Source: Alphaproteobacteria bacterium (GTDB lineage: Bacteria; Pseudomonadota; Alphaproteobacteria; RF32; CAG-239). Taken from it: 64,000 nucleotides of DNA. Shown here piece after piece: positions 53,878 through 59,113 of the stretch. The notes beneath the pieces were generated by a model. The model had not been told where the DNA came from and made no database searches. It saw only the letters and a list, made by a program, of their open reading frames with translations. Position 1 is the stretch's first letter. Each line of letters begins with the position of its first letter. Location: contig JAGAZZ010000006.1 of NCBI GenBank assembly GCA_017939155.1, forward strand, positions 7,564 to 71,563. The letters are read 5' to 3'. The position numbers were made by a program, and so were the translations under genes.

Positions 53878-54414
53878 TTAATGCTCTGCTCCGAATTTCA
53901 GCTCGTATGCGTCACGCGCTTCTTCAATCAGCTTTTTGGCTTCCTCAGGTCCCAAGAAGCTCTCAATCGTCACCTGCTTTTTTTCCAAAACCTTATAGTC
54001 TTCAAAAAAGCGTCTGAGCATTTTTAAGATATGCGGCGGAATCTCTGAAATGTTATGATACACATTATACTCCGGGTCATCTTCATGAATAGCGATAATT
54101 TTATCATCTGCTTCCCCGCAGTCAATCATCTTCATCACGCCAATCGGACGCGCCCGCATAATCGACAGCGGAAAAATCGATTCCTGTCCCAAAACCAAAA
54201 TATCCAAAGGGTCATTATCTTCGCAATACGTTTGCGGAATAAACCCGTAGTTTGCCGGATAATGCACCGCGGAATATAAAATCCTGTCAACCTTTACAAG
54301 CCCGCTTTCTTTATCCAGTTCATATTTAACCTGCGAGCCTTTCGGAACCTCAATAATCGCCGGCACAATATCCGGAAATTGTGAATAATGCTTTACCTGA
54401 TGCCAAGGATGCAC
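53878..54414 (-). CDS. ppa: Inorganic pyrophosphatase (family I)
   Basis: The IEVPKGS..KYE.D and DPLDILV...... D.K..A motifs. 178 aa. Confidence 0.93.
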
Positions 54415-54561
54415 AACATTTCTCCTAAAAAATTAATCCTAACGAACATAGACAAATCCCCTCCCTTTGTCAAGTAAAAGTTTTGAAAAAAATATTTGCA
54501 ACCTATAAAAAATATGCTAAACTATCCCCTAACGAAGACAATAAAAAACACGGAGATAAAA

Positions 54562-56097
54562 ATGAAAACCTACCCGGCAGATTTATTAGGCAAACTCGAT
54601 TCCGAACAAATCAACATCATCCAGCAAAATTGTGACAAAGACGCGCTTGACTATCTTGAAGAAAAAAATGACGCTATGCCTTTCTTAAATGCCGAAGACA
54701 AAAAACACTTACGTGAGTATTATACAGACACGATGGAAAAATATCGTCTGCTCTATGAGGCAATCGTTTCCGGTTTTTCCACCCCGAATAAAACCGGCTT
54801 CCCCGAAGCTATCCATAATATTAACTTAAAAGACGGTAGTATAGAAACCAATAAAAACGGTCGCCGCGTTAATTATTCAACTGAAATCTTAGCCCCCTGC
54901 ACCAGTGCCCTTTTACACTACATCAACGGCGAATGCAATGACGTGTACGTTATCATCCCGCCCATCAAAAGCGTTGAACGCACCACAGAAAAATTAATCA
55001 CCGAGTGCGAGGTGGAATATCGGCAAAATCGCCAAAATGCTTTGGAAAAATTTGAAGACGAACCCGAGCTCCCTTTTTATGCCGCTTCGCAATCCTCCGA
55101 TTGTCCGACGGCTGCTCTGCTTGAAAATCTGCAAGCCGAACAAAAAACAAGCGGCGCCTTGTTAGACATTGCCAAAAAAGAACTCCTGCCCAAAGACATC
55201 TATCGCCTGTCCATCACCTCAAAATACCCCGGCGACTTAGAAGAATTAATCCGCGAGCTTGAAAATAACTTTCCGCCTTATATCAAGTTTGAAAACAATG
55301 AAAGAAACCTCTATAAAGAAAACTTAAGTCAAAACAAGCGCAACTATTTTGACATCAAAAAAACCGCCCGTATCACCATTCCTGACAGCGAGCGCCATTT
55401 TTATATTGAGTTTCAGTTCAAGCAGACCAATATGTTTTTTGCCCACATTCGCTCACACAGCGCTTATGAGGATTTTCGCTTATATGAAACAAAATACAAC
55501 GCCACCAAAGAAGCCGCATTAAAGAAAAAAACAACCTCTTCGCCCGAGGTCAAAGCCAAGCTCGCCCTCTTAAAAAAACAATGCGAAGAAAAACGCGACC
55601 TTTGCCTGCGCATACACCGTAACGCTGTCCACCAAAGCAACCTTTATTTAATGCACAAACTCCTTTGGCTGGATGACAACGCCCGTGGTTTAGGGCGCAA
55701 ACCCGAACTGCCGCAAGGTCGTTACAAACACTCGGTCGAAACCCTAAAAAAGAACTATATTGTTGAAAGTTACGAACCGTTTGACGGCACCACCGCGTTC
55801 ACCACCGCTGAAGATGAATACCTAAACAAATCCTATTACTTAAAAATGATAGGCATTCTCCCCGAAAGCTTTGACGAACTCGGCAAACACGCCAAAATTC
55901 ATATCAACAAAGCTTGGGAAAACTTAGGTCATGCCGATATTAAAGATTTTGACCGCATAACCAATATGGCCATCAAATATCAAGACGTTGTCCGCTCTAT
56001 CCAAAAAGAAAAACAACTGATGGATAATAACGCCCTCCTAAACGTCTTGGCGCAAGCCACCGGCAATAGCTTAAAATCGCAAACCGGCGGCAGGTAG
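54562..56097 (+). CDS. Hypothetical protein with a divergent RelA/SpoT-like (RSH) nucleotidyl/pyrophosphotransferase motif set
   Basis: GGAGA SD before the ATG at 54562. The motifs PPIKSVERTTEKL, DIYRLSITSKYPGDLEEL, RNYFDIKKTARITIP and FYIEFQFKQTNMFFAHIRSHSAYEDF appear in the order and spacing of RSH synthetase motifs Syn1-Syn5. The functional call is tentative. Confidence 0.6.
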   Translation: MKTYPADLLGKLDSEQINIIQQNCDKDALDYLEEKNDAMPFLNAEDKKHLREYYTDTMEKYRLLYEAIVSGFSTPNKTGFPEAIHNINLKDGSIETNKNGRRVNYSTEILAPCTSALLHYINGECNDVYVIIPPIKSVERTTEKLITECEVEYRQNRQNALEKFEDEPELPFYAASQSSDCPTAALLENLQAEQKTSGALLDIAKKELLPKDIYRLSITSKYPGDLEELIRELENNFPPYIKFENNERNLYKENLSQNKRNYFDIKKTARITIPDSERHFYIEFQFKQTNMFFAHIRSHSAYEDFRLYETKYNATKEAALKKKTTSSPEVKAKLALLKKQCEEKRDLCLRIHRNAVHQSNLYLMHKLLWLDDNARGLGRKPELPQGRYKHSVETLKKNYIVESYEPFDGTTAFTTAEDEYLNKSYYLKMIGILPESFDELGKHAKIHINKAWENLGHADIKDFDRITNMAIKYQDVVRSIQKEKQLMDNNALLNVLAQATGNSLKSQTGGR

Positions 56098-56100
56098 CCT

Positions 56101-56736
56101 ATGCCAGAAATAAAATACGCCATATTTGATGTCGGGCAAACCGTCTATCCGTTCACGCTTCAACCGCTTATTGACTATATGCAAAAAGAAACAGCCGAAC
56201 CGGAAGTTTTTGCCAATCATCACACCCCGCGTTTTTATGACTATAATCCGTATATGAAAGGAAAAATAACTAACGCCGAATTTGCCGAAGAGCTTTGCTT
56301 TTTCTGCCGCGTCCCTTATCACGAAAACAGGCTTGAAGAAATAAACCAAGCTCTGCACAAAGGCTGTGGTTCCCCCTTTCCCCAAACCTTGAAAGCAATG
56401 AATATCCTCCGCCAAAATAAAGTGGAAATATGCCTACTGTCAAACGCTCTGCCTCTGCTTGCAGACACCGGCTCATGTCTGACAAAACCCGAGCTGGCTT
56501 TTACCTCATACGACCTGCACCTCTTAAAACCGGACACGGCAATTTTTCAAACCGTCTTGGATAAGCTAAACACAACCCCTGAACGAACTCTCTTTTTTGA
56601 TGATAAATCAACCAATATCAAAGCCGCGCAATCGCTCAAAATGAACGGCATTGTTTATCGTCCTGAAACCGTTTTAAAAGAGCTTAGTTTTTATCTACCG
56701 CCCGCTCCCATGACTCTCCGTTCACGAGAAGTCTGA
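56101..56736 (+). CDS. HAD-superfamily hydrolase
   Basis: Motif I-like AIFDVGQTV, LLSNA, and motif IV FFDDKSTNIKAAQSLKMNGI. It starts 4 nt after the upstream stop. Confidence 0.8.
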   Translation: MPEIKYAIFDVGQTVYPFTLQPLIDYMQKETAEPEVFANHHTPRFYDYNPYMKGKITNAEFAEELCFFCRVPYHENRLEEINQALHKGCGSPFPQTLKAMNILRQNKVEICLLSNALPLLADTGSCLTKPELAFTSYDLHLLKPDTAIFQTVLDKLNTTPERTLFFDDKSTNIKAAQSLKMNGIVYRPETVLKELSFYLPPAPMTLRSREV

Positions 56737-57091
56737 GTGCGTATGGCTTAAATCCTTCTTTATAAGAAAACACAATCTCTGCCGTGTTGTTCGTATCCCT
56801 CACAGCTTTATCTAACGCCTGCGCTTTGTTTTCCGGCACATAAAAACGTCCTGCCCCCCCAAACGCCAACTTAGGACACAAACCACCTTCAAATTGCGTA
56901 CAATCCGTATTATCCCAGTCTAGCCAATACGAAATATAATGCCCCGAAAGCAAATCCCACGGGTCATATCCGCGCAACCGCACCACAACCTCTCGCCCCT
57001 GATTGCGCTGATGTGCAATTTCTGTCATCCAAACCAGCATAATCATCACCGGCAAAAACACTAACCCCACATAGCCGTATTTTTTAAGCAT
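56684..57091 (-). CDS. GDYXXLXY-domain protein
   Basis: An N-terminal TM and LRGYDPWDLLSGHYISY, which matches the P.DPrdl.rGdY..L.Y signature. The ATG at 57091 overlaps the upstream DUF2157-like gene. Confidence 0.75.
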   Translation of the reverse strand: MLKKYGYVGLVFLPVMIMLVWMTEIAHQRNQGREVVVRLRGYDPWDLLSGHYISYWLDWDNTDCTQFEGGLCPKLAFGGAGRFYVPENKAQALDKAVRDTNNTAEIVFSYKEGFKPYALRLLVNGESWERAVDKN

Positions 57092-58007
57092 TTTTCTTCT
57101 CCTCTTTTTTAATAAGTTTTGACCACTTGACAACACCTTTTACAAGAGCAATCAACAGCACACCGCTGATAATCAACCCGATACCGGTAGAAAAAAGTCC
57201 GATTTTACCGCCAAGATAAATATATAAACTAAACACCCACAGCCCCGCAAACTTGATATTAAGCCGCACTTTGCCGTAATCCTTAAAATAATGATAAACC
57301 CCGGAAGTCAAAAGCAAAATCAACGCGCTGATAGTCAAATGTAACGAATTCAACCATAAAATATAACCGGCCAACACCAGATAAAACGCAAAACACGCAT
57401 CACGCCTAAGCACTTCTCCCACAACAAAATCAGGCTTATACTTGCTCAAGAGCCAACCGCCGGCATATAACGCCGCATAAACAACCAAAAATTTCTCAAG
57501 TCCAAACGTTTTGTAGTCAAACGCATACATCGCATACCATACCAAAAACAGCGGCACCCAAAACCACGCCACATACTTTTTCTTTGCCGCAAATAACAAC
57601 GGCAGTGTCGCCGCCCACCAAAGCGCAAACAGAAGGTGCATAATATTGCCGCTTAATTGATAAATCTGTATCACCAGCCCGATTGCCGCGCCCACAAACA
57701 AAAACAGCACCACGAGCCATTTTTCCGCTCTATTGTCTTGTCCTTTAAGTTTGTTGGAAACCGCCATTCCTGCCGCCCCGAACAACAACGCAAACATCAC
57801 AATCAGTTTTAAGTTATCGCCGATATATTCCCAATTAGACGCCACCAGCGAAATCACCCCGACCCCGATGGTAAAAATCCCCAGCAAATTCAGCGCCCGC
57901 ATCACAAAACCGCCTGATGAATCATCAAAACTCAAAATCTGTTTTTGCTGTTCCGCCGTAATAATCCCCGCTTTAACCAGCTTGTCTAATTGTTTTACCT
58001 TAAACAT
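57084..58007 (-). CDS. DUF2157-like polytopic membrane protein
   Basis: A cytoplasmic N-terminal helix (LVKAGIITAEQQKQIL) and about 9 TM segments. It is paired with the GDYXXLXY gene, a known association. Confidence 0.7.
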   Translation of the reverse strand: MFKVKQLDKLVKAGIITAEQQKQILSFDDSSGGFVMRALNLLGIFTIGVGVISLVASNWEYIGDNLKLIVMFALLFGAAGMAVSNKLKGQDNRAEKWLVVLFLFVGAAIGLVIQIYQLSGNIMHLLFALWWAATLPLLFAAKKKYVAWFWVPLFLVWYAMYAFDYKTFGLEKFLVVYAALYAGGWLLSKYKPDFVVGEVLRRDACFAFYLVLAGYILWLNSLHLTISALILLLTSGVYHYFKDYGKVRLNIKFAGLWVFSLYIYLGGKIGLFSTGIGLIISGVLLIALVKGVVKWSKLIKKEEKKNA

Positions 58008-58078: not shown

Positions 58079-59113
58079 CTATCTTCCGCCAACCTGCCGT
58101 TGCGCCGTTCTCATCTTTTCTGCGGCTATATACCTGGACATTCCCGCACCCTGCTCTTGACACGCCCGCATAACAGCCGTTGCCGCCAGCGCTTTTTTAT
58201 CCATCGGTTCCTTTCTGACAGCACCCACAAATTCTTGAAGCTCTCCGTGACTGAATTCCGGTTTTGCCGTCATATCATAAGTCAATTTCAAAATATCTTT
58301 GTCTGTCGCCGGAATACGCTCCGGATTTTCCGCATACTTCCTCAACGCCGCGTATGTCTTGGGCATAACGTATGTCATAACGCCGCTTTTAACCGCCCTG
58401 TCAACATCCTTGGCATTATGGATTTCATTAACAGTATGATTAATCTGCGAACGTTGATAATTAAAAACTTCAAAGACCTCCTTAGCATACTTCGGATGTT
58501 CTTTCATCACTTTTAAAAGCGCAAACACGTCACACTTGCGTTCATCATCTGTCCCCAGCGCCGCATGAACGCTCTCGTGATATAGCCCGCGCTTTAAAAA
58601 CATTTCTTGGCGCTCCGCCGCCGGAATATGCGCCACAAAACTCTTGCAATCTTCCGTTTTTCTGGGCATTGCATCACCTTTATCCTCTAAGGTAATAAGC
58701 TGCATATTGCCGATATGTTTTGCACAATAATTTGTATTACCGACAATGTCCCCAAAAACCTGCGCCGCATAAAAACGATTCCGCGTCACATCACCAAACA
58801 AAACATCATTTCCGTTTTTTTCATACGACAAATCAGACCCTCTGGCCTGTAACACAAAAAACACCATTTGCGCTTTCAGTTCCTCGTCGCTCATCTCGGG
58901 ATGTGCTTTTTTAGCACACTCAAAACCCTCTTTAACCTGCCGCCCGTTGACAAGCGAAATATCAGGAGCAACCGCTCCGCCGCGCGACATCACACCCGCA
59001 TTATATAACGGGTCTTCCTCAGGCATTTTTAATTCCGCCCCAGCCTCTTTGCCAAGCAAACATAAACCACGGGCAAACCCTTCATATTCAGCGCAAAACT
59101 CATTATAATCCAT
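58079..59113 (-). CDS. Hypothetical protein with an HExxH motif (possible metallopeptidase-like ORFan)
   Basis: 344 aa with GLYHESVHAALG. No signal peptide and no recognised family. Confidence 0.55.
   Translation of the reverse strand: MDYNEFCAEYEGFARGLCLLGKEAGAELKMPEEDPLYNAGVMSRGGAVAPDISLVNGRQVKEGFECAKKAHPEMSDEELKAQMVFFVLQARGSDLSYEKNGNDVLFGDVTRNRFYAAQVFGDIVGNTNYCAKHIGNMQLITLEDKGDAMPRKTEDCKSFVAHIPAAERQEMFLKRGLYHESVHAALGTDDERKCDVFALLKVMKEHPKYAKEVFEVFNYQRSQINHTVNEIHNAKDVDRAVKSGVMTYVMPKTYAALRKYAENPERIPATDKDILKLTYDMTAKPEFSHGELQEFVGAVRKEPMDKKALAATAVMRACQEQGAGMSRYIAAEKMRTAQRQVGGR

What the first reader, a model, noticed from the sequence alone, without database searches (positions are those of the whole stretch)
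54562..56736. Divergent RelA/SpoT-like (RSH-fold) protein operonic with a HAD hydrolase: a candidate nucleotide-pyrophosphokinase toxin/effector with a detoxifying partner
Residues encoded at about 54958-55485 carry four motifs in order. PPIKSVERTTEKL resembles RVKxxxSxxxK. DIYRLSITSKYPGDLEEL resembles the DxxGxR strand. RNYFDIKKTARITIP resembles GYRSxH. FYIEFQFKQTNMFFAHIRSHSAYEDF resembles vEIQIRTxxMxxWAxxxHxxxYK. This is the motif order of small alarmone synthetases, toxSAS toxins and the ppApp-forming effector Tas1, but several canonical residues are replaced. The protein has long unique N- and C-terminal regions and no recognisable hydrolase domain. A HAD-family hydrolase starts 4 nt after its stop. 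Known toxSAS partners are small antitoxins or SAH hydrolases, so a HAD phosphatase partner would be a new pairing.
Basis: inference. Interest (0 to 1): 0.6.

Follow-up and report, generated by a model that had tools for sequence, protein, structure and literature searches.

The report
Divergent alarmone-synthetase-fold enzyme, no antidote partner
This gene encodes a very divergent, uncatalogued relative of the enzymes that make bacterial alarm nucleotides such as ppGpp. It is found only in one family of uncultured gut Alphaproteobacteria, and the phosphatase gene behind it is a loose neighbour, not a toxin antidote.

Summary
The 511-aa ORF at 54562-56097 has no Pfam, NCBIfam, PADLOC or PDB sequence match. 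A confident AlphaFold model, and a second model of the core alone, retrieve only small alarmone synthetases (RelQ, RelP, CapRel, FaRel, an exported SAS) from the PDB (E about 1e-4, probability 1.0, TM 0.3-0.42).

In a 19-sequence alignment reaching 18% identity, only 12 non-initiator columns are invariant. Ten lie in the five RSH synthetase motifs: K136, R140, K144, D212, R215, Y262, E283, K287, H299 and Y302. Both arginines that sandwich the donor adenine in canonical enzymes are replaced (P134, S217).

The toxin-antidote reading fails. The HAD is a YihX-like phosphatase. It is adjacent in 8 of 29 informative loci, nearby in 8 and missing in 12, including the 97%-identical closest relative. 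Of 201 genomes, 44 have the enzyme without the HAD and 33 the reverse. The context is chromosomal and syntenic.

Most likely this is an active, lineage-specific pyrophosphokinase with an unknown acceptor.

Also noted: 61% of family members end in a C-terminal arginine, which is unexplained.

The scan has found this superfamily before on other DNA from gut Alphaproteobacteria.

The parts
54562..56097 (+). Gene for the 511-aa divergent RSH-synthetase-fold protein, stop included
   Evidence: ORF list. 83 homologues at 37-93% identity, all about 500 aa. AF2 pLDDT 86.6, pTM 0.82. Foldseek top 42 hits are all SAS or toxSAS.
54551..54554 (+). Shine-Dalgarno-like GGAG, 7 nt before the ATG
   Evidence: Read directly from the sequence.
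54562..54783 (+). N-terminal helical region (residues 1-74), specific to this family
   Evidence: Model helices 14-34, 44-53 and 57-72. It also occurs in more remote relatives that match only query positions 1-170.
54784..55536 (+). Catalytic core (residues 75-325) with SAS-like order of elements: strand, helix, strand, helix, three strands, helix
   Evidence: Secondary structure of both models. The core-only model again retrieves only SAS as its top 40 hits.
54958..54996 (+). Motif 1 (PPIKSVERTTEKL), the triphosphate-binding strand-helix junction. K136, R140 and K144 are invariant. The canonical first Arg is replaced by P134.
   Evidence: Canonical residues K80/S84/K88/R91 of SaRelP and R64/K66/S70/K74/R77 of FaRel2.
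55057..55176 (+). Variable insertion of about 40 residues (166-205) between motifs 1 and 2. It is partly disordered and absent from canonical SAS.
   Evidence: pLDDT below 50 at residues 166-179. The region is gap-rich and variable in the alignments. K-to-D spacing is 76 here against 27 in SaRelP.
55195..55221 (+). Motif 2 (DIYRLSITS). D212 is the presumed Mg2+ ligand. R215 is invariant but shifted, and the canonical Arg at +5 is S217.
   Evidence: invariant columns. (aligned to DIMAFRI of the genome's own long RSH)..
55339..55359 (+). Motif 3, G-loop equivalent (RNYFDIK). Y262 is invariant; D264 and K266 are nearly invariant.
   Evidence: The G-loop Tyr151 of SaRelP and Tyr116 of BsRelQ is critical for acceptor binding.
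55399..55470 (+). Motifs 4 and 5 (FYIEFQFKQTNMFFAHIRSHSAYE), with E283-x-Q285-x-K287 and H299-x-x-Y302
   Evidence: The Glu-to-His spacing of 16 equals E174-to-H190 in SaRelP.
55537..56061 (+). All-helical C-terminal region (residues 326-500), highly conserved within the subfamily, with no recognisable relative
   Evidence: pLDDT 92-96. Many invariant residues, including Q358, S359, N360, N398, Y399, F407, G409, P434, E435, F437, D438, E439 and W452. Only insignificant 14-3-3 or helical-bundle Foldseek hits.
56062..56094 (+). Disordered C-terminal tail ending in Gly-Arg. A terminal Arg is conserved in 61% of the family.
   Evidence: pLDDT 30-37. 77 of 127 full-length members end in R, against 8.1% of long ORFs in this genome.
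56101..56736 (+). YihX-like HAD-IA phosphatase gene, probably co-transcribed here but not a conserved partner
   Evidence: PF00702 4e-10, TIGR01509. Best solved relatives are E. coli YihX glucose-1-phosphatase entries at 4e-10, sharing the IFDxG motif. Context and phyletic analysis.
53878..54414 (-). Inorganic pyrophosphatase gene, divergently oriented upstream. It is a syntenic neighbour in 24 of 33 loci.

Best explanation
The 511-aa protein is a very divergent member of the RelA/SpoT-homologue synthetase fold, that is, it resembles a small alarmone synthetase. It belongs to an uncatalogued family confined, in the genomes searched, to one family of small-genome (1.1-2.0 Mb) uncultured gut and rumen Alphaproteobacteria. 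It most likely still works as a Mg2+-dependent pyrophosphokinase. In that model K136, R140 and K144 hold the triphosphate of an NTP donor, D212 and E283 hold the metal, and Y262 on the G-loop equivalent stacks on the base of the acceptor, whose 3'-OH receives the beta,gamma-pyrophosphate. These steps are inferred from conserved residues and fold; none has been shown. Both arginines that sandwich the donor adenine in canonical enzymes are replaced (P134, S217), while new invariant arginines appear (R140, R215). Donor binding is therefore probably rearranged. The acceptor could be a nucleotide, giving an alarmone-like product, or an RNA 3' end; this is unknown. The family-specific N-terminal helices and the strongly conserved helical C-terminal region probably regulate or target the enzyme. 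The gene is a vertically inherited chromosomal gene, additional to a canonical long RSH in the same genome. The YihX-like HAD phosphatase downstream is probably co-transcribed in this genome, but it is an ancestral, frequently lost neighbour and not an antidote.
For: Fold: the full-length AF2 model (pLDDT 86.6, pTM 0.82) gives Foldseek top 42 PDB hits that are all RelQ, RelP, CapRel, FaRel or an exported SAS (E from 1e-4, probability 1.0). A core-only model built from a different alignment again gives only SAS in its top 40, followed by Pol-beta-type nucleotidyltransferases at insignificant scores. A BFVD hit to a viral YjbM-like protein has rmsd 5.9 A over 156 columns.

Residues: the invariant columns across 19 sequences, down to 18% identity, sit in the five SYNTH motifs. 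6 of the 8 ATP, Mg and acceptor residues named for SaRelP are retained (K80, K88, D107, Y151, E174, H190), with identical E-to-H spacing. The mapping also agrees with the FaRel2 active site. The profile-profile alignment to the genome's own long RSH is not significant (E 0.075), but it aligns D212, Y262, E283, Q285, K287, M291, H299 and Y302 in register with the canonical motifs. One distant member has a weak RelA_SpoT Pfam hit in the right place (E 0.61). There is only one acidic residue on the D212 strand (D-I-Y-R), as in RSH enzymes, and no Pol-beta DxD.

Inheritance: the region is syntenic (Band7 - ppa - gene - ... - rpoA) across relatives at 38-97% identity. G+C is unremarkable. The family was found in 93 of 201 genomes of the order, all 93 in one of the two families sampled (15 of its 21 genera), and in none of 16 genomes of 16 other families (15 of them outside the order). 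The genome has its own 712-aa long RSH.

Not a toxin-antitoxin pair.
Against: No sequence method reaches significance against RSH families: Pfam, NCBIfam, PDB phmmer and hmmsearch, and hhalign. TM-scores are only 0.3-0.42, and rmsd is large for the long alignments, so the similarity is at fold level and rests on predicted structures. Two canonical donor-binding arginines and the motif-1 Ser and Arg are not conserved, so the chemistry could differ. Nothing indicates the substrate. Distribution within the bacterial family is patchy: 0 of 30, 0 of 10 and 0 of 7 genomes in three genera. The function is therefore dispensable.
Confidence: 0.6

Rival explanations
1. One reading: a toxSAS-like toxin or effector whose product, or whose modified target, is detoxified by the co-transcribed HAD phosphatase acting as a type IV-like antitoxin.
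For: A 3-nt spacer and no terminator-like site between the genes in this genome. The same tight arrangement occurs in 7 other loci from different subclades, and the HAD lies within 2.4 kb in 8 more, so the linkage is ancestral. There is a weak positive phyletic association (odds ratio 2.5, inflated by relatedness). An enzymatic antitoxin has a precedent in the SAH ATfaRel.
Against: 12 of 29 informative loci keep an intact enzyme gene with no such HAD within 4-6 kb, including the 97%-identical closest relative. No HAD orthologue was found anywhere in 4 of 5 such assemblies. 44 of 93 genomes with the enzyme lack the HAD, and 33 genomes have the HAD without the enzyme. Distant subfamilies have other neighbours. 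The HAD's best relatives are YihX-type sugar-phosphate phosphatases. There is no mobile, prophage or defence context.
Confidence: 0.07
2. A fused, self-inhibited toxSAS of the CapRel type. The conserved C-terminal region keeps the catalytic domain off until a trigger such as a phage protein releases it, giving abortive-infection defence.
For: The architecture is single-gene, with a catalytic domain followed by about 200 extra residues. CapRel is among the Foldseek hits (E 1.6e-2, 311 columns). The family is patchy among genera, as accessory defence genes are.
Against: The C-terminal region is all-helical and has no YxxY motif, unlike the pseudo-zinc-finger domain described for CapRel. It is the most conserved part of the protein, whereas sensor domains usually vary. 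The locus is syntenic and housekeeping, not a defence island. There is no PADLOC match. Nothing was found in phage or plasmid collections.
Confidence: 0.1
3. A translocated effector. The enzyme would be exported, for example by the type IV secretion system that is core to this bacterial family, with the disordered tail ending in Arg as part of the signal, and would act in another cell.
For: 77 of 127 family members end in Arg after a variable disordered tail, against 8.1% background. VirB4 is present in 196 of 201 genomes, and a VirD4-type coupling protein is present in this genome. Secreted and exported RSH-fold enzymes exist: Tas1, and the exported SAS 8vx3. There is no signal peptide, and no immunity gene would be needed if the target is not a sibling cell.
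Against: The secretion system is nearly universal in the family while the enzyme is patchy, so the phyletic test cannot discriminate. The gene is not linked to secretion genes. The tail is only mildly basic. A terminal Arg has other possible roles. There is no direct evidence of export.
Confidence: 0.1
4. The fold is kept but the chemistry has changed. The protein would be a nucleotidyltransferase, a kinase, or a non-catalytic nucleotide-binding protein, and not a pyrophosphokinase.
For: Both adenine-sandwich arginines and two other donor-site residues are replaced. An inorganic pyrophosphatase gene lies divergently upstream in 24 of 33 loci, which would suit a PPi-releasing reaction. Pol-beta-type nucleotidyltransferases are the next, insignificant, structural neighbours.
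Against: The RSH-specific Asp/Glu pair, ExQ, the G-loop Tyr and H..Y are invariant. A Pol-beta DxD pair is absent. The ppa gene is the ordinary housekeeping gene in a syntenic block, and it is absent upstream in 9 loci that keep the enzyme.
Confidence: 0.12

Closest known systems
Small alarmone synthetases RelQ/SAS1 (YjbM; PDB 5dec, 5ded, 5f2v) and RelP/SAS2 (YwaC; 6ewz, 6ex0, 6fgj, 6fgk, 6fgx)
   Same: They are the best structural neighbours of both models. The order of secondary-structure elements in the core is the same. The following are retained: the Mg2+ ligands Asp and Glu, ExQ, two triphosphate-binding lysines, the G-loop Tyr, and the His 16 residues after the Glu.
   Different: There is no detectable sequence similarity: no Pfam PF04607 match. 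The protein is 511 aa against about 200 aa. It has extra N-terminal helices and strands, an insertion of about 40 residues between motifs 1 and 2, and a helical C-terminal region of about 200 aa. RxK is PxK, the motif-1 Ser is Arg, DxxGxR is DxxRxS, and GYxSxH is xYxDxK. TM-scores are only 0.3-0.42.
toxSAS toxins FaRel2, FaRel and CapRel (PDB 8pu1, 7ztb), which act in toxin-antitoxin or fused defence modules
   Same: The catalytic fold is the same. The equivalents of FaRel2 residues K66, K74, D90, Y128, E145 and Q147 are conserved.
   Different: The equivalents of R64, S70, R77, G93 and R95 are not conserved. There is no conserved small antitoxin, SAH or pseudo-zinc-finger domain. The context is a syntenic chromosomal locus and not a prophage or defence setting.
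Secreted (p)ppApp synthetases: Tas1 of Pseudomonas aeruginosa, and the exported SAS of Streptomyces albidoflavus (PDB 8vx3)
   Same: RSH synthetase fold. 8vx3 appears among the Foldseek hits at E 0.09.
   Different: These are much weaker matches than RelQ and RelP. There is no T6SS or export-signal context and no adjacent immunity gene.
The genome's own long RSH (Rel/SpoT type, 712 aa, contig C35)
   Same: It carries the canonical motifs REKSPYSIWRK, DIMAFRI, GYQSIH and IEVQIRTHEMH...AAHWAYK. The target's motifs align to these in register.
   Different: The long RSH matches Pfam RelA_SpoT at 1e-43. The target has no such match and no other recognisable Pfam domain. It is an additional, separate lineage.
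E. coli YihX (alpha-D-glucose-1-phosphate phosphatase; PDB 2b0c, 8pno, 8pne), for the neighbouring HAD
   Same: It is the best solved relative (E 4e-10 over the whole length). It shares the IFDxG variant of HAD motif I. NCBIfam HAD-IA and PRK09456 hits agree.
   Different: The scores are far below the equivalog cut-off (53 against 295 bits), so the substrate is unknown.

Membership tests
RSH synthetase domain / small alarmone synthetase (Pfam PF04607 RelA_SpoT) | Match to the family's sequence profile above its curated cut-off | tested here: not met
   No Pfam or NCBIfam hit for the protein or any of 30 homologues, even at E<=10. The only trace is 10.8 bits (E 0.61, cut-off 27) in the distant member P0104. 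hhalign against long-RSH SYNTH profiles gives E 0.43 and 0.075.
RSH synthetase domain / small alarmone synthetase (Pfam PF04607 RelA_SpoT) | SYNTH fold: a mixed sheet with the element order strand-helix-strand-helix-strand-strand-strand-helix, similar to solved SAS structures | tested here: met
   Two AF2 models (pLDDT 86.6 and 75.8) show this order. The Foldseek top 42 and top 40 PDB hits are exclusively SAS or toxSAS, with probability 1.0 and E 1e-4. TM is only 0.3-0.42, and rmsd is 4.3-6.8 A over 92-118 columns for the compact alignments.
RSH synthetase domain / small alarmone synthetase (Pfam PF04607 RelA_SpoT) | Catalytic Mg2+ ligands: Asp at the start of the second strand, and Glu of ExQ on the last strand | tested here: met
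   D212 and E283 are invariant and Q285 is nearly invariant down to 18% identity. They are aligned in register to the D and ExQ of the genome's own RSH. The corresponding residues are D107 and E174 in SaRelP and D90 and E145 in FaRel2.
RSH synthetase domain / small alarmone synthetase (Pfam PF04607 RelA_SpoT) | Triphosphate-binding motif RxKxxxSxxxKxxR | tested here: inconclusive
   K136 and K144 are invariant at the two Lys positions. The first Arg is P134, the Ser is the invariant R140, and the last Arg is T147. A basic cluster exists but is rearranged.
RSH synthetase domain / small alarmone synthetase (Pfam PF04607 RelA_SpoT) | Two arginines that sandwich the donor adenine (R64 and R95 in FaRel2) | tested here: not met
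   The equivalent positions are P134 (invariant within the subfamily) and S217. R215 is invariant two residues earlier.
RSH synthetase domain / small alarmone synthetase (Pfam PF04607 RelA_SpoT) | G-loop tyrosine that stacks on the acceptor base | tested here: met
   Y262 is invariant. It lies between the third and fourth core strands of the model and is aligned to the Y of GYQSIH.
RSH synthetase domain / small alarmone synthetase (Pfam PF04607 RelA_SpoT) | Pyrophosphate transfer from ATP to the 3'-OH of a nucleotide or tRNA | not testable with these tools
   This needs a biochemical assay.
toxSAS toxin-antitoxin module | Conserved two-gene (or three-gene) architecture with a cognate partner | tested here: not met
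   The HAD is adjacent in 8 of 29 informative loci, 0.75-2.4 kb away in 8, reduced to a remnant in 1 and absent in 12. The phyletic table is 49 both, 44 enzyme only, 33 HAD only, 75 neither. No other conserved small neighbour was seen.
toxSAS toxin-antitoxin module | Partner of a known antitoxin kind (SAH hydrolase, pseudo-zinc-finger, GepA/Panacea type) | tested here: not met
   The partner is a YihX-like HAD-IA phosphatase. Known antitoxin kinds are listed in PMC7229694 and PMC11782079.
toxSAS toxin-antitoxin module | Growth arrest on expression, relieved by the partner | not testable with these tools
   This needs an expression experiment.
CapRel-type fused toxin-antitoxin | C-terminal pseudo-zinc-finger domain with a YxxY motif that blocks the ATP site | tested here: not met
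   Residues 289-500 are all helical in the model. No YxxY occurs in residues 326-511 (sequence). The feature is described.
HAD-IA phosphatases, YihX-like (the neighbouring gene) | HAD profile match above cut-off, and motif I with the nucleophilic Asp in the IFDxG variant | tested here: met
   PF00702 at 40.8 bits (cut-off 26.4), PF13419 at 32 bits, TIGR01509 at 46.9 bits (cut-off 29.4). The alignment to YihX shows IFDVGQT against IFDLGNV.

The most novel reading that the evidence does not exclude
The family is a new branch of RSH-fold enzymes with a rebuilt donor site. Either it makes a nucleotide product not yet described, serving as a lineage-specific second messenger in small-genome gut Alphaproteobacteria, or it is delivered through their core type IV secretion system into another cell, with the conserved C-terminal arginine tail as the signal.
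Probability: 0.15. Interest if true: 0.8.

Novelty: new variant of a known kind. Interest (0 to 1): 0.5.

Why it matters
RSH enzymes are catalogued with sequence profiles, and a family that no profile detects is missing from that catalogue. This one shows that the alarmone-synthetase fold extends into a branch that keeps the catalytic Asp/Glu/Tyr/His set but has replaced both adenine-clamping arginines and added large conserved domains. It therefore offers a natural test of how donor and acceptor specificity are set in this fold.

It is also an abundant unknown gene in uncultured gut and rumen Alphaproteobacteria; one cluster alone has 298 member sequences on 117 contigs. Its product could be a signalling nucleotide or a modified RNA in those organisms.

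The negative result matters too. Tight operon spacing with a hydrolase in one genome was not enough to infer a toxin-antidote pair.

Tried and rejected
1. Sequence searches of the protein and of a 30-sequence profile against Pfam, NCBIfam and PDB found nothing relevant.
2. hhalign of the family against a 23-sequence alignment of long-RSH synthetase domains taken from alphaproteobacterial genomes was not significant (E 0.43 and 0.075). The second run did give the expected register.
3. Phage and plasmid collections, searched with a distant member by tblastn, gave no match. PADLOC and PHROGs gave nothing meaningful. A mobile or defence origin was therefore rejected.
4. BFVD hits to large phage polyvalent proteins (E 2.5e-3 to 1.4e-2) were not followed further, because no Pfam LPD or ART domain is present.
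5. The idea that the gene replaces a missing stringent factor was rejected, because the genome has a normal 712-aa long RSH.
6. The idea that the convergent HAD seen in relatives is the same gene as the window's HAD was rejected. They are two unrelated HAD types: 61.5% identity to the co-oriented one, and no significant similarity to the convergent one.
7. A phyletic test of type IV secretion against the enzyme could not discriminate, because VirB4 is in 196 of 201 genomes.
9. An explicit structural superposition to confirm residue equivalences was not possible, because model coordinates are not exposed to scripts.
Full report
**What is there**

The window carries an ORF at 54562-56097 (+). 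Its ATG is preceded by GGAG 7 nt upstream, and it stops at TAG 56095-56097. The longer TTG-initiated frame from 54496 is not used, because all homologues begin at the same MKTY. Three bases after the stop, a 211-aa HAD gene starts (56101-56736). No terminator-like site lies between the two genes. G+C content is unremarkable across the region.

**No sequence method names the protein**

- Pfam and NCBIfam give nothing for the 511-aa protein.
- Scanning all 30 aligned homologues individually at E<=10 also gives no RelA_SpoT hit.
- phmmer, and a profile of 30 homologues, against all PDB sequences give nothing relevant.
- PADLOC and PHROGs give nothing.

**The family**

A word-indexed search found 83 homologues of about 500 aa at 37-93% identity. 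All come from gut or rumen metagenomes and MAGs labelled Alphaproteobacteria. An exhaustive profile search of 1.84 billion representatives added more remote full-length relatives at 18-31% identity. These also come from MAGs and metagenomes, one of them labelled Alphaproteobacteria.

In genomes of known placement, the family was found in 93 of 201 genomes of the order. All 93 lie in one of the two families sampled (92 of its 199 genomes besides the window's own; the single genome of the other family had no match). It occurs in 15 of that family's 21 genera but is patchy: 20/23, 11/11 and 10/10 in some genera, and 0/30, 0/10 and 0/7 in others. It was not found in 16 genomes of 16 other families, 15 of them outside the order. 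Some genomes carry two paralogues.

**Fold**

An AlphaFold2 model built on the 30-sequence alignment is confident (mean pLDDT 86.6, pTM 0.82). Foldseek against the PDB returns, as its first 42 hits, only RSH synthetase-domain proteins:

- RelQ/SAS1 (5dec, 5ded, 5f2v);
- RelP/SAS2 (6ewz, 6ex0, 6fgj, 6fgk, 6fgx);
- 2be3 and 3l9d;
- CapRel (7ztb);
- the exported SAS 8vx3;
- FaRel (8pu1).

The best E is 1e-4 and the probability is 1.00.

As a control I modelled the core alone (residues 75-325) from a different alignment that includes the remote subfamily (pLDDT 75.8). Its first 40 PDB hits are again only SAS. Pol-beta-type nucleotidyltransferases follow at insignificant scores.

The similarity is at fold level and not close. 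TM-scores normalised by the target are 0.3-0.42. The compact alignments have rmsd 4.3-6.8 A over 92-118 columns.

The order of elements in the core runs as follows:

1. strand 127-132;
2. helix 138-165;
3. an insertion;
4. strand 214-220;
5. helix 223-236;
6. strands 241-249, 265-272 and 279-288;
7. helix 289-321.

**Active-site residues**

In a 19-sequence alignment spanning all subfamilies, the only invariant columns besides the initiator Met are G92, Y105, K136, R140, K144, D212, R215, Y262, E283, K287, H299 and Y302. D264, K266 and Q285 are nearly invariant.

Published structures name the key residues:

- SaRelP: K80, S84, K88 and R91 for the ATP phosphates, D107 and E174 for Mg2+, the G-loop Y151 for the acceptor, and H190 (PMC5794853).
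- FaRel2: R64, K66, S70, K74 and R77 for the triphosphate, D90 for Mg2+, G93, R95 and Q147 for the adenine, plus E145 and Y128 (PMC11782079).

By motif register, the target keeps the equivalents of K80, K88, D107, Y151, E174 and H190, and also Q147. The Glu-to-His distance is 16 residues in both proteins.

The register is not only my choice. hhalign of the family core against the synthetase domains of long RSHs, including this genome's own, is statistically insignificant (E 0.075). Its single best alignment nevertheless pairs D212, Y262, E283, Q285, K287, M291, H299 and Y302 with the D, Y, E, Q, R, M, H and Y of DIMAFRI, GYQSIH and IEVQIRTHEMH...HWAY. One remote member has a weak Pfam RelA_SpoT hit over the matching region (10.8 bits).

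Not everything is conserved:

- The first Arg of RxK is Pro134.
- The Ser is Arg140.
- The last Arg is Thr147.
- The Arg of DxxGxR is Ser217, with a new invariant Arg215 two residues earlier.

So both arginines that clamp the donor adenine in canonical enzymes are gone. I read this as a rearranged donor site in an enzyme that is still active, because the metal ligands and the acceptor tyrosine are under absolute conservation. This is inference.

**What surrounds the core**

- Residues 1-74 are family-specific helices.
- Residues 166-205 are a variable, partly disordered insertion.
- Residues 326-500 form a helical region with very high confidence and many invariant residues within the subfamily. 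It has no significant structural neighbour.
- The last 11 residues are disordered and end in Gly-Arg.

Unexpectedly, 77 of 127 full-length family members, from subfamilies only about 25% identical, end in Arg, mostly as GR, ER or DR. Only 8.1% of long ORFs in this genome end in Arg, and 2.1% end in [GED]R. I cannot explain this.

**The HAD and the toxin-antidote idea**

The HAD passes the Pfam and NCBIfam HAD-IA cut-offs. Its best solved relatives are E. coli YihX glucose-1-phosphatase entries, which share the IFDxG form of motif I.

I compared 33 loci that carry the enzyme gene. Relatives have two unrelated HAD types near the gene. One is the window's type, co-oriented downstream. The other is a beta-phosphoglucomutase-like type on the opposite strand.

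Of the 29 loci with enough downstream sequence, the window's type is distributed as follows:

| Position of the YihX-like HAD | Loci |
|---|---|
| Directly behind the enzyme gene | 8 |
| 0.75-2.4 kb away, with other genes between | 8 |
| Reduced to a 42-codon remnant | 1 |
| Absent within 4-6 kb | 12 |

The absent group includes the closest relative, whose enzyme is 97% identical. In 4 of 5 assemblies of the absent kind, no orthologue was found anywhere. Conversely, 2 of 5 genomes without the enzyme have the HAD.

Across 201 genomes the counts are 49 both, 44 enzyme only, 33 HAD only and 75 neither. The odds ratio of 2.5 is inflated by shared ancestry.

The remote subfamilies sit next to quite different genes. 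The enzyme gene lies in a syntenic housekeeping block: MFS, NfeD, Band7, a small membrane protein, ppa, the gene, and onward to rpoA. Nothing related was found in phage or plasmid collections.

An enzyme that is kept intact for long periods without the supposed antidote is not an obligate toxin-antidote pair. A looser metabolic link cannot be excluded, for example the phosphatase trimming the product.

**Other readings**

- A CapRel-like fused, self-inhibited toxin is unlikely. The C-terminal region is all-helical, lacks a YxxY motif, is the most conserved part of the protein, and the locus is not a defence island.
- A secreted effector is not excluded. The bacterial family has a core VirB4-type secretion system (196 of 201 genomes). 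This genome also has a VirD4-type protein. The conserved terminal Arg might be part of a signal. Nothing else supports this reading.
- A change of chemistry is possible given the altered donor site. The divergently oriented ppa gene, present in 24 of 33 loci, would suit a PPi-releasing reaction. However, the RSH-specific residue set is intact, and there is no Pol-beta DxD pair.

**Relation to what is known**

The genome has its own canonical long RSH (712 aa, Pfam 1e-43), so this is an additional enzyme. The published RSH classification rests on HMM searches and lists 30 SAS subfamilies (PMC7229694). A family invisible to such profiles is, by inference, not in it. Two full-text searches found no paper describing it.

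Within this scan, the same superfamily has been reported before on other DNA from uncultured gut Alphaproteobacteria, with the same closest structures and with other chance neighbours such as Nudix, lysS and trpS. Those notes agree with what I found independently. They do not add evidence.

**Verdict**

The fold assignment is supported. The toxin-plus-HAD-antidote model is not supported. The protein is best described as a new, very divergent variant of the RSH synthetase fold. It is probably active, and its donor-binding mode and acceptor are unknown.

Noticed in passing
window 56062-56094, and the C-termini of family members P0001-P0164: 61% of full-length family members (77 of 127), from subfamilies only about 25% identical, end in Arg. 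Most end in -GR, -ER or -DR, after a variable disordered tail. Only 8.1% of ORFs of at least 250 aa in this genome end in Arg. The cause is unexplained.
   Followed up: partly
window 58079-59113 (-): A 344-aa protein with no family match carries an HExxH motif (HESVH). It is syntenic in several relatives (L046, L048, L062, L064).
   Followed up: no
L001 7512-8186 (-), L002 7552-8226 (-), L004 8316-8999 (-), L074: In several relatives a second, unrelated HAD (the DFDGV, beta-phosphoglucomutase-like type) lies convergent to the enzyme gene, sometimes overlapping its 3' end. The region has therefore acquired HAD genes of two kinds.
   Followed up: partly
G000 contigs C20:5648-6256 and C37:5024-6616 (outside the window): A single-copy VirB4-type ATPase of about 810-830 aa is present in 196 of 201 genomes of this small-genome alphaproteobacterial family. 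This genome also has a VirD4-type coupling protein. A type IV secretion system is therefore a core feature of the lineage.
   Followed up: partly
window 53878-54414 (-): The inorganic pyrophosphatase gene is divergently oriented 147 nt upstream of the enzyme gene. It keeps that position in 24 of 33 loci.
   Followed up: partly
window 56684-56736: The 3' end of the HAD gene overlaps by 53 nt the 3' end of the convergent GDYXXLXY-family ORF at 56684-57136 (-). That ORF pairs with a DUF2157 membrane protein gene at 57084-58007 (-).
   Followed up: no
L068 7488-7613: One relative keeps only a remnant of about 42 codons of the YihX-like HAD directly behind an intact enzyme gene. This looks like HAD decay in progress.
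   Followed up: no
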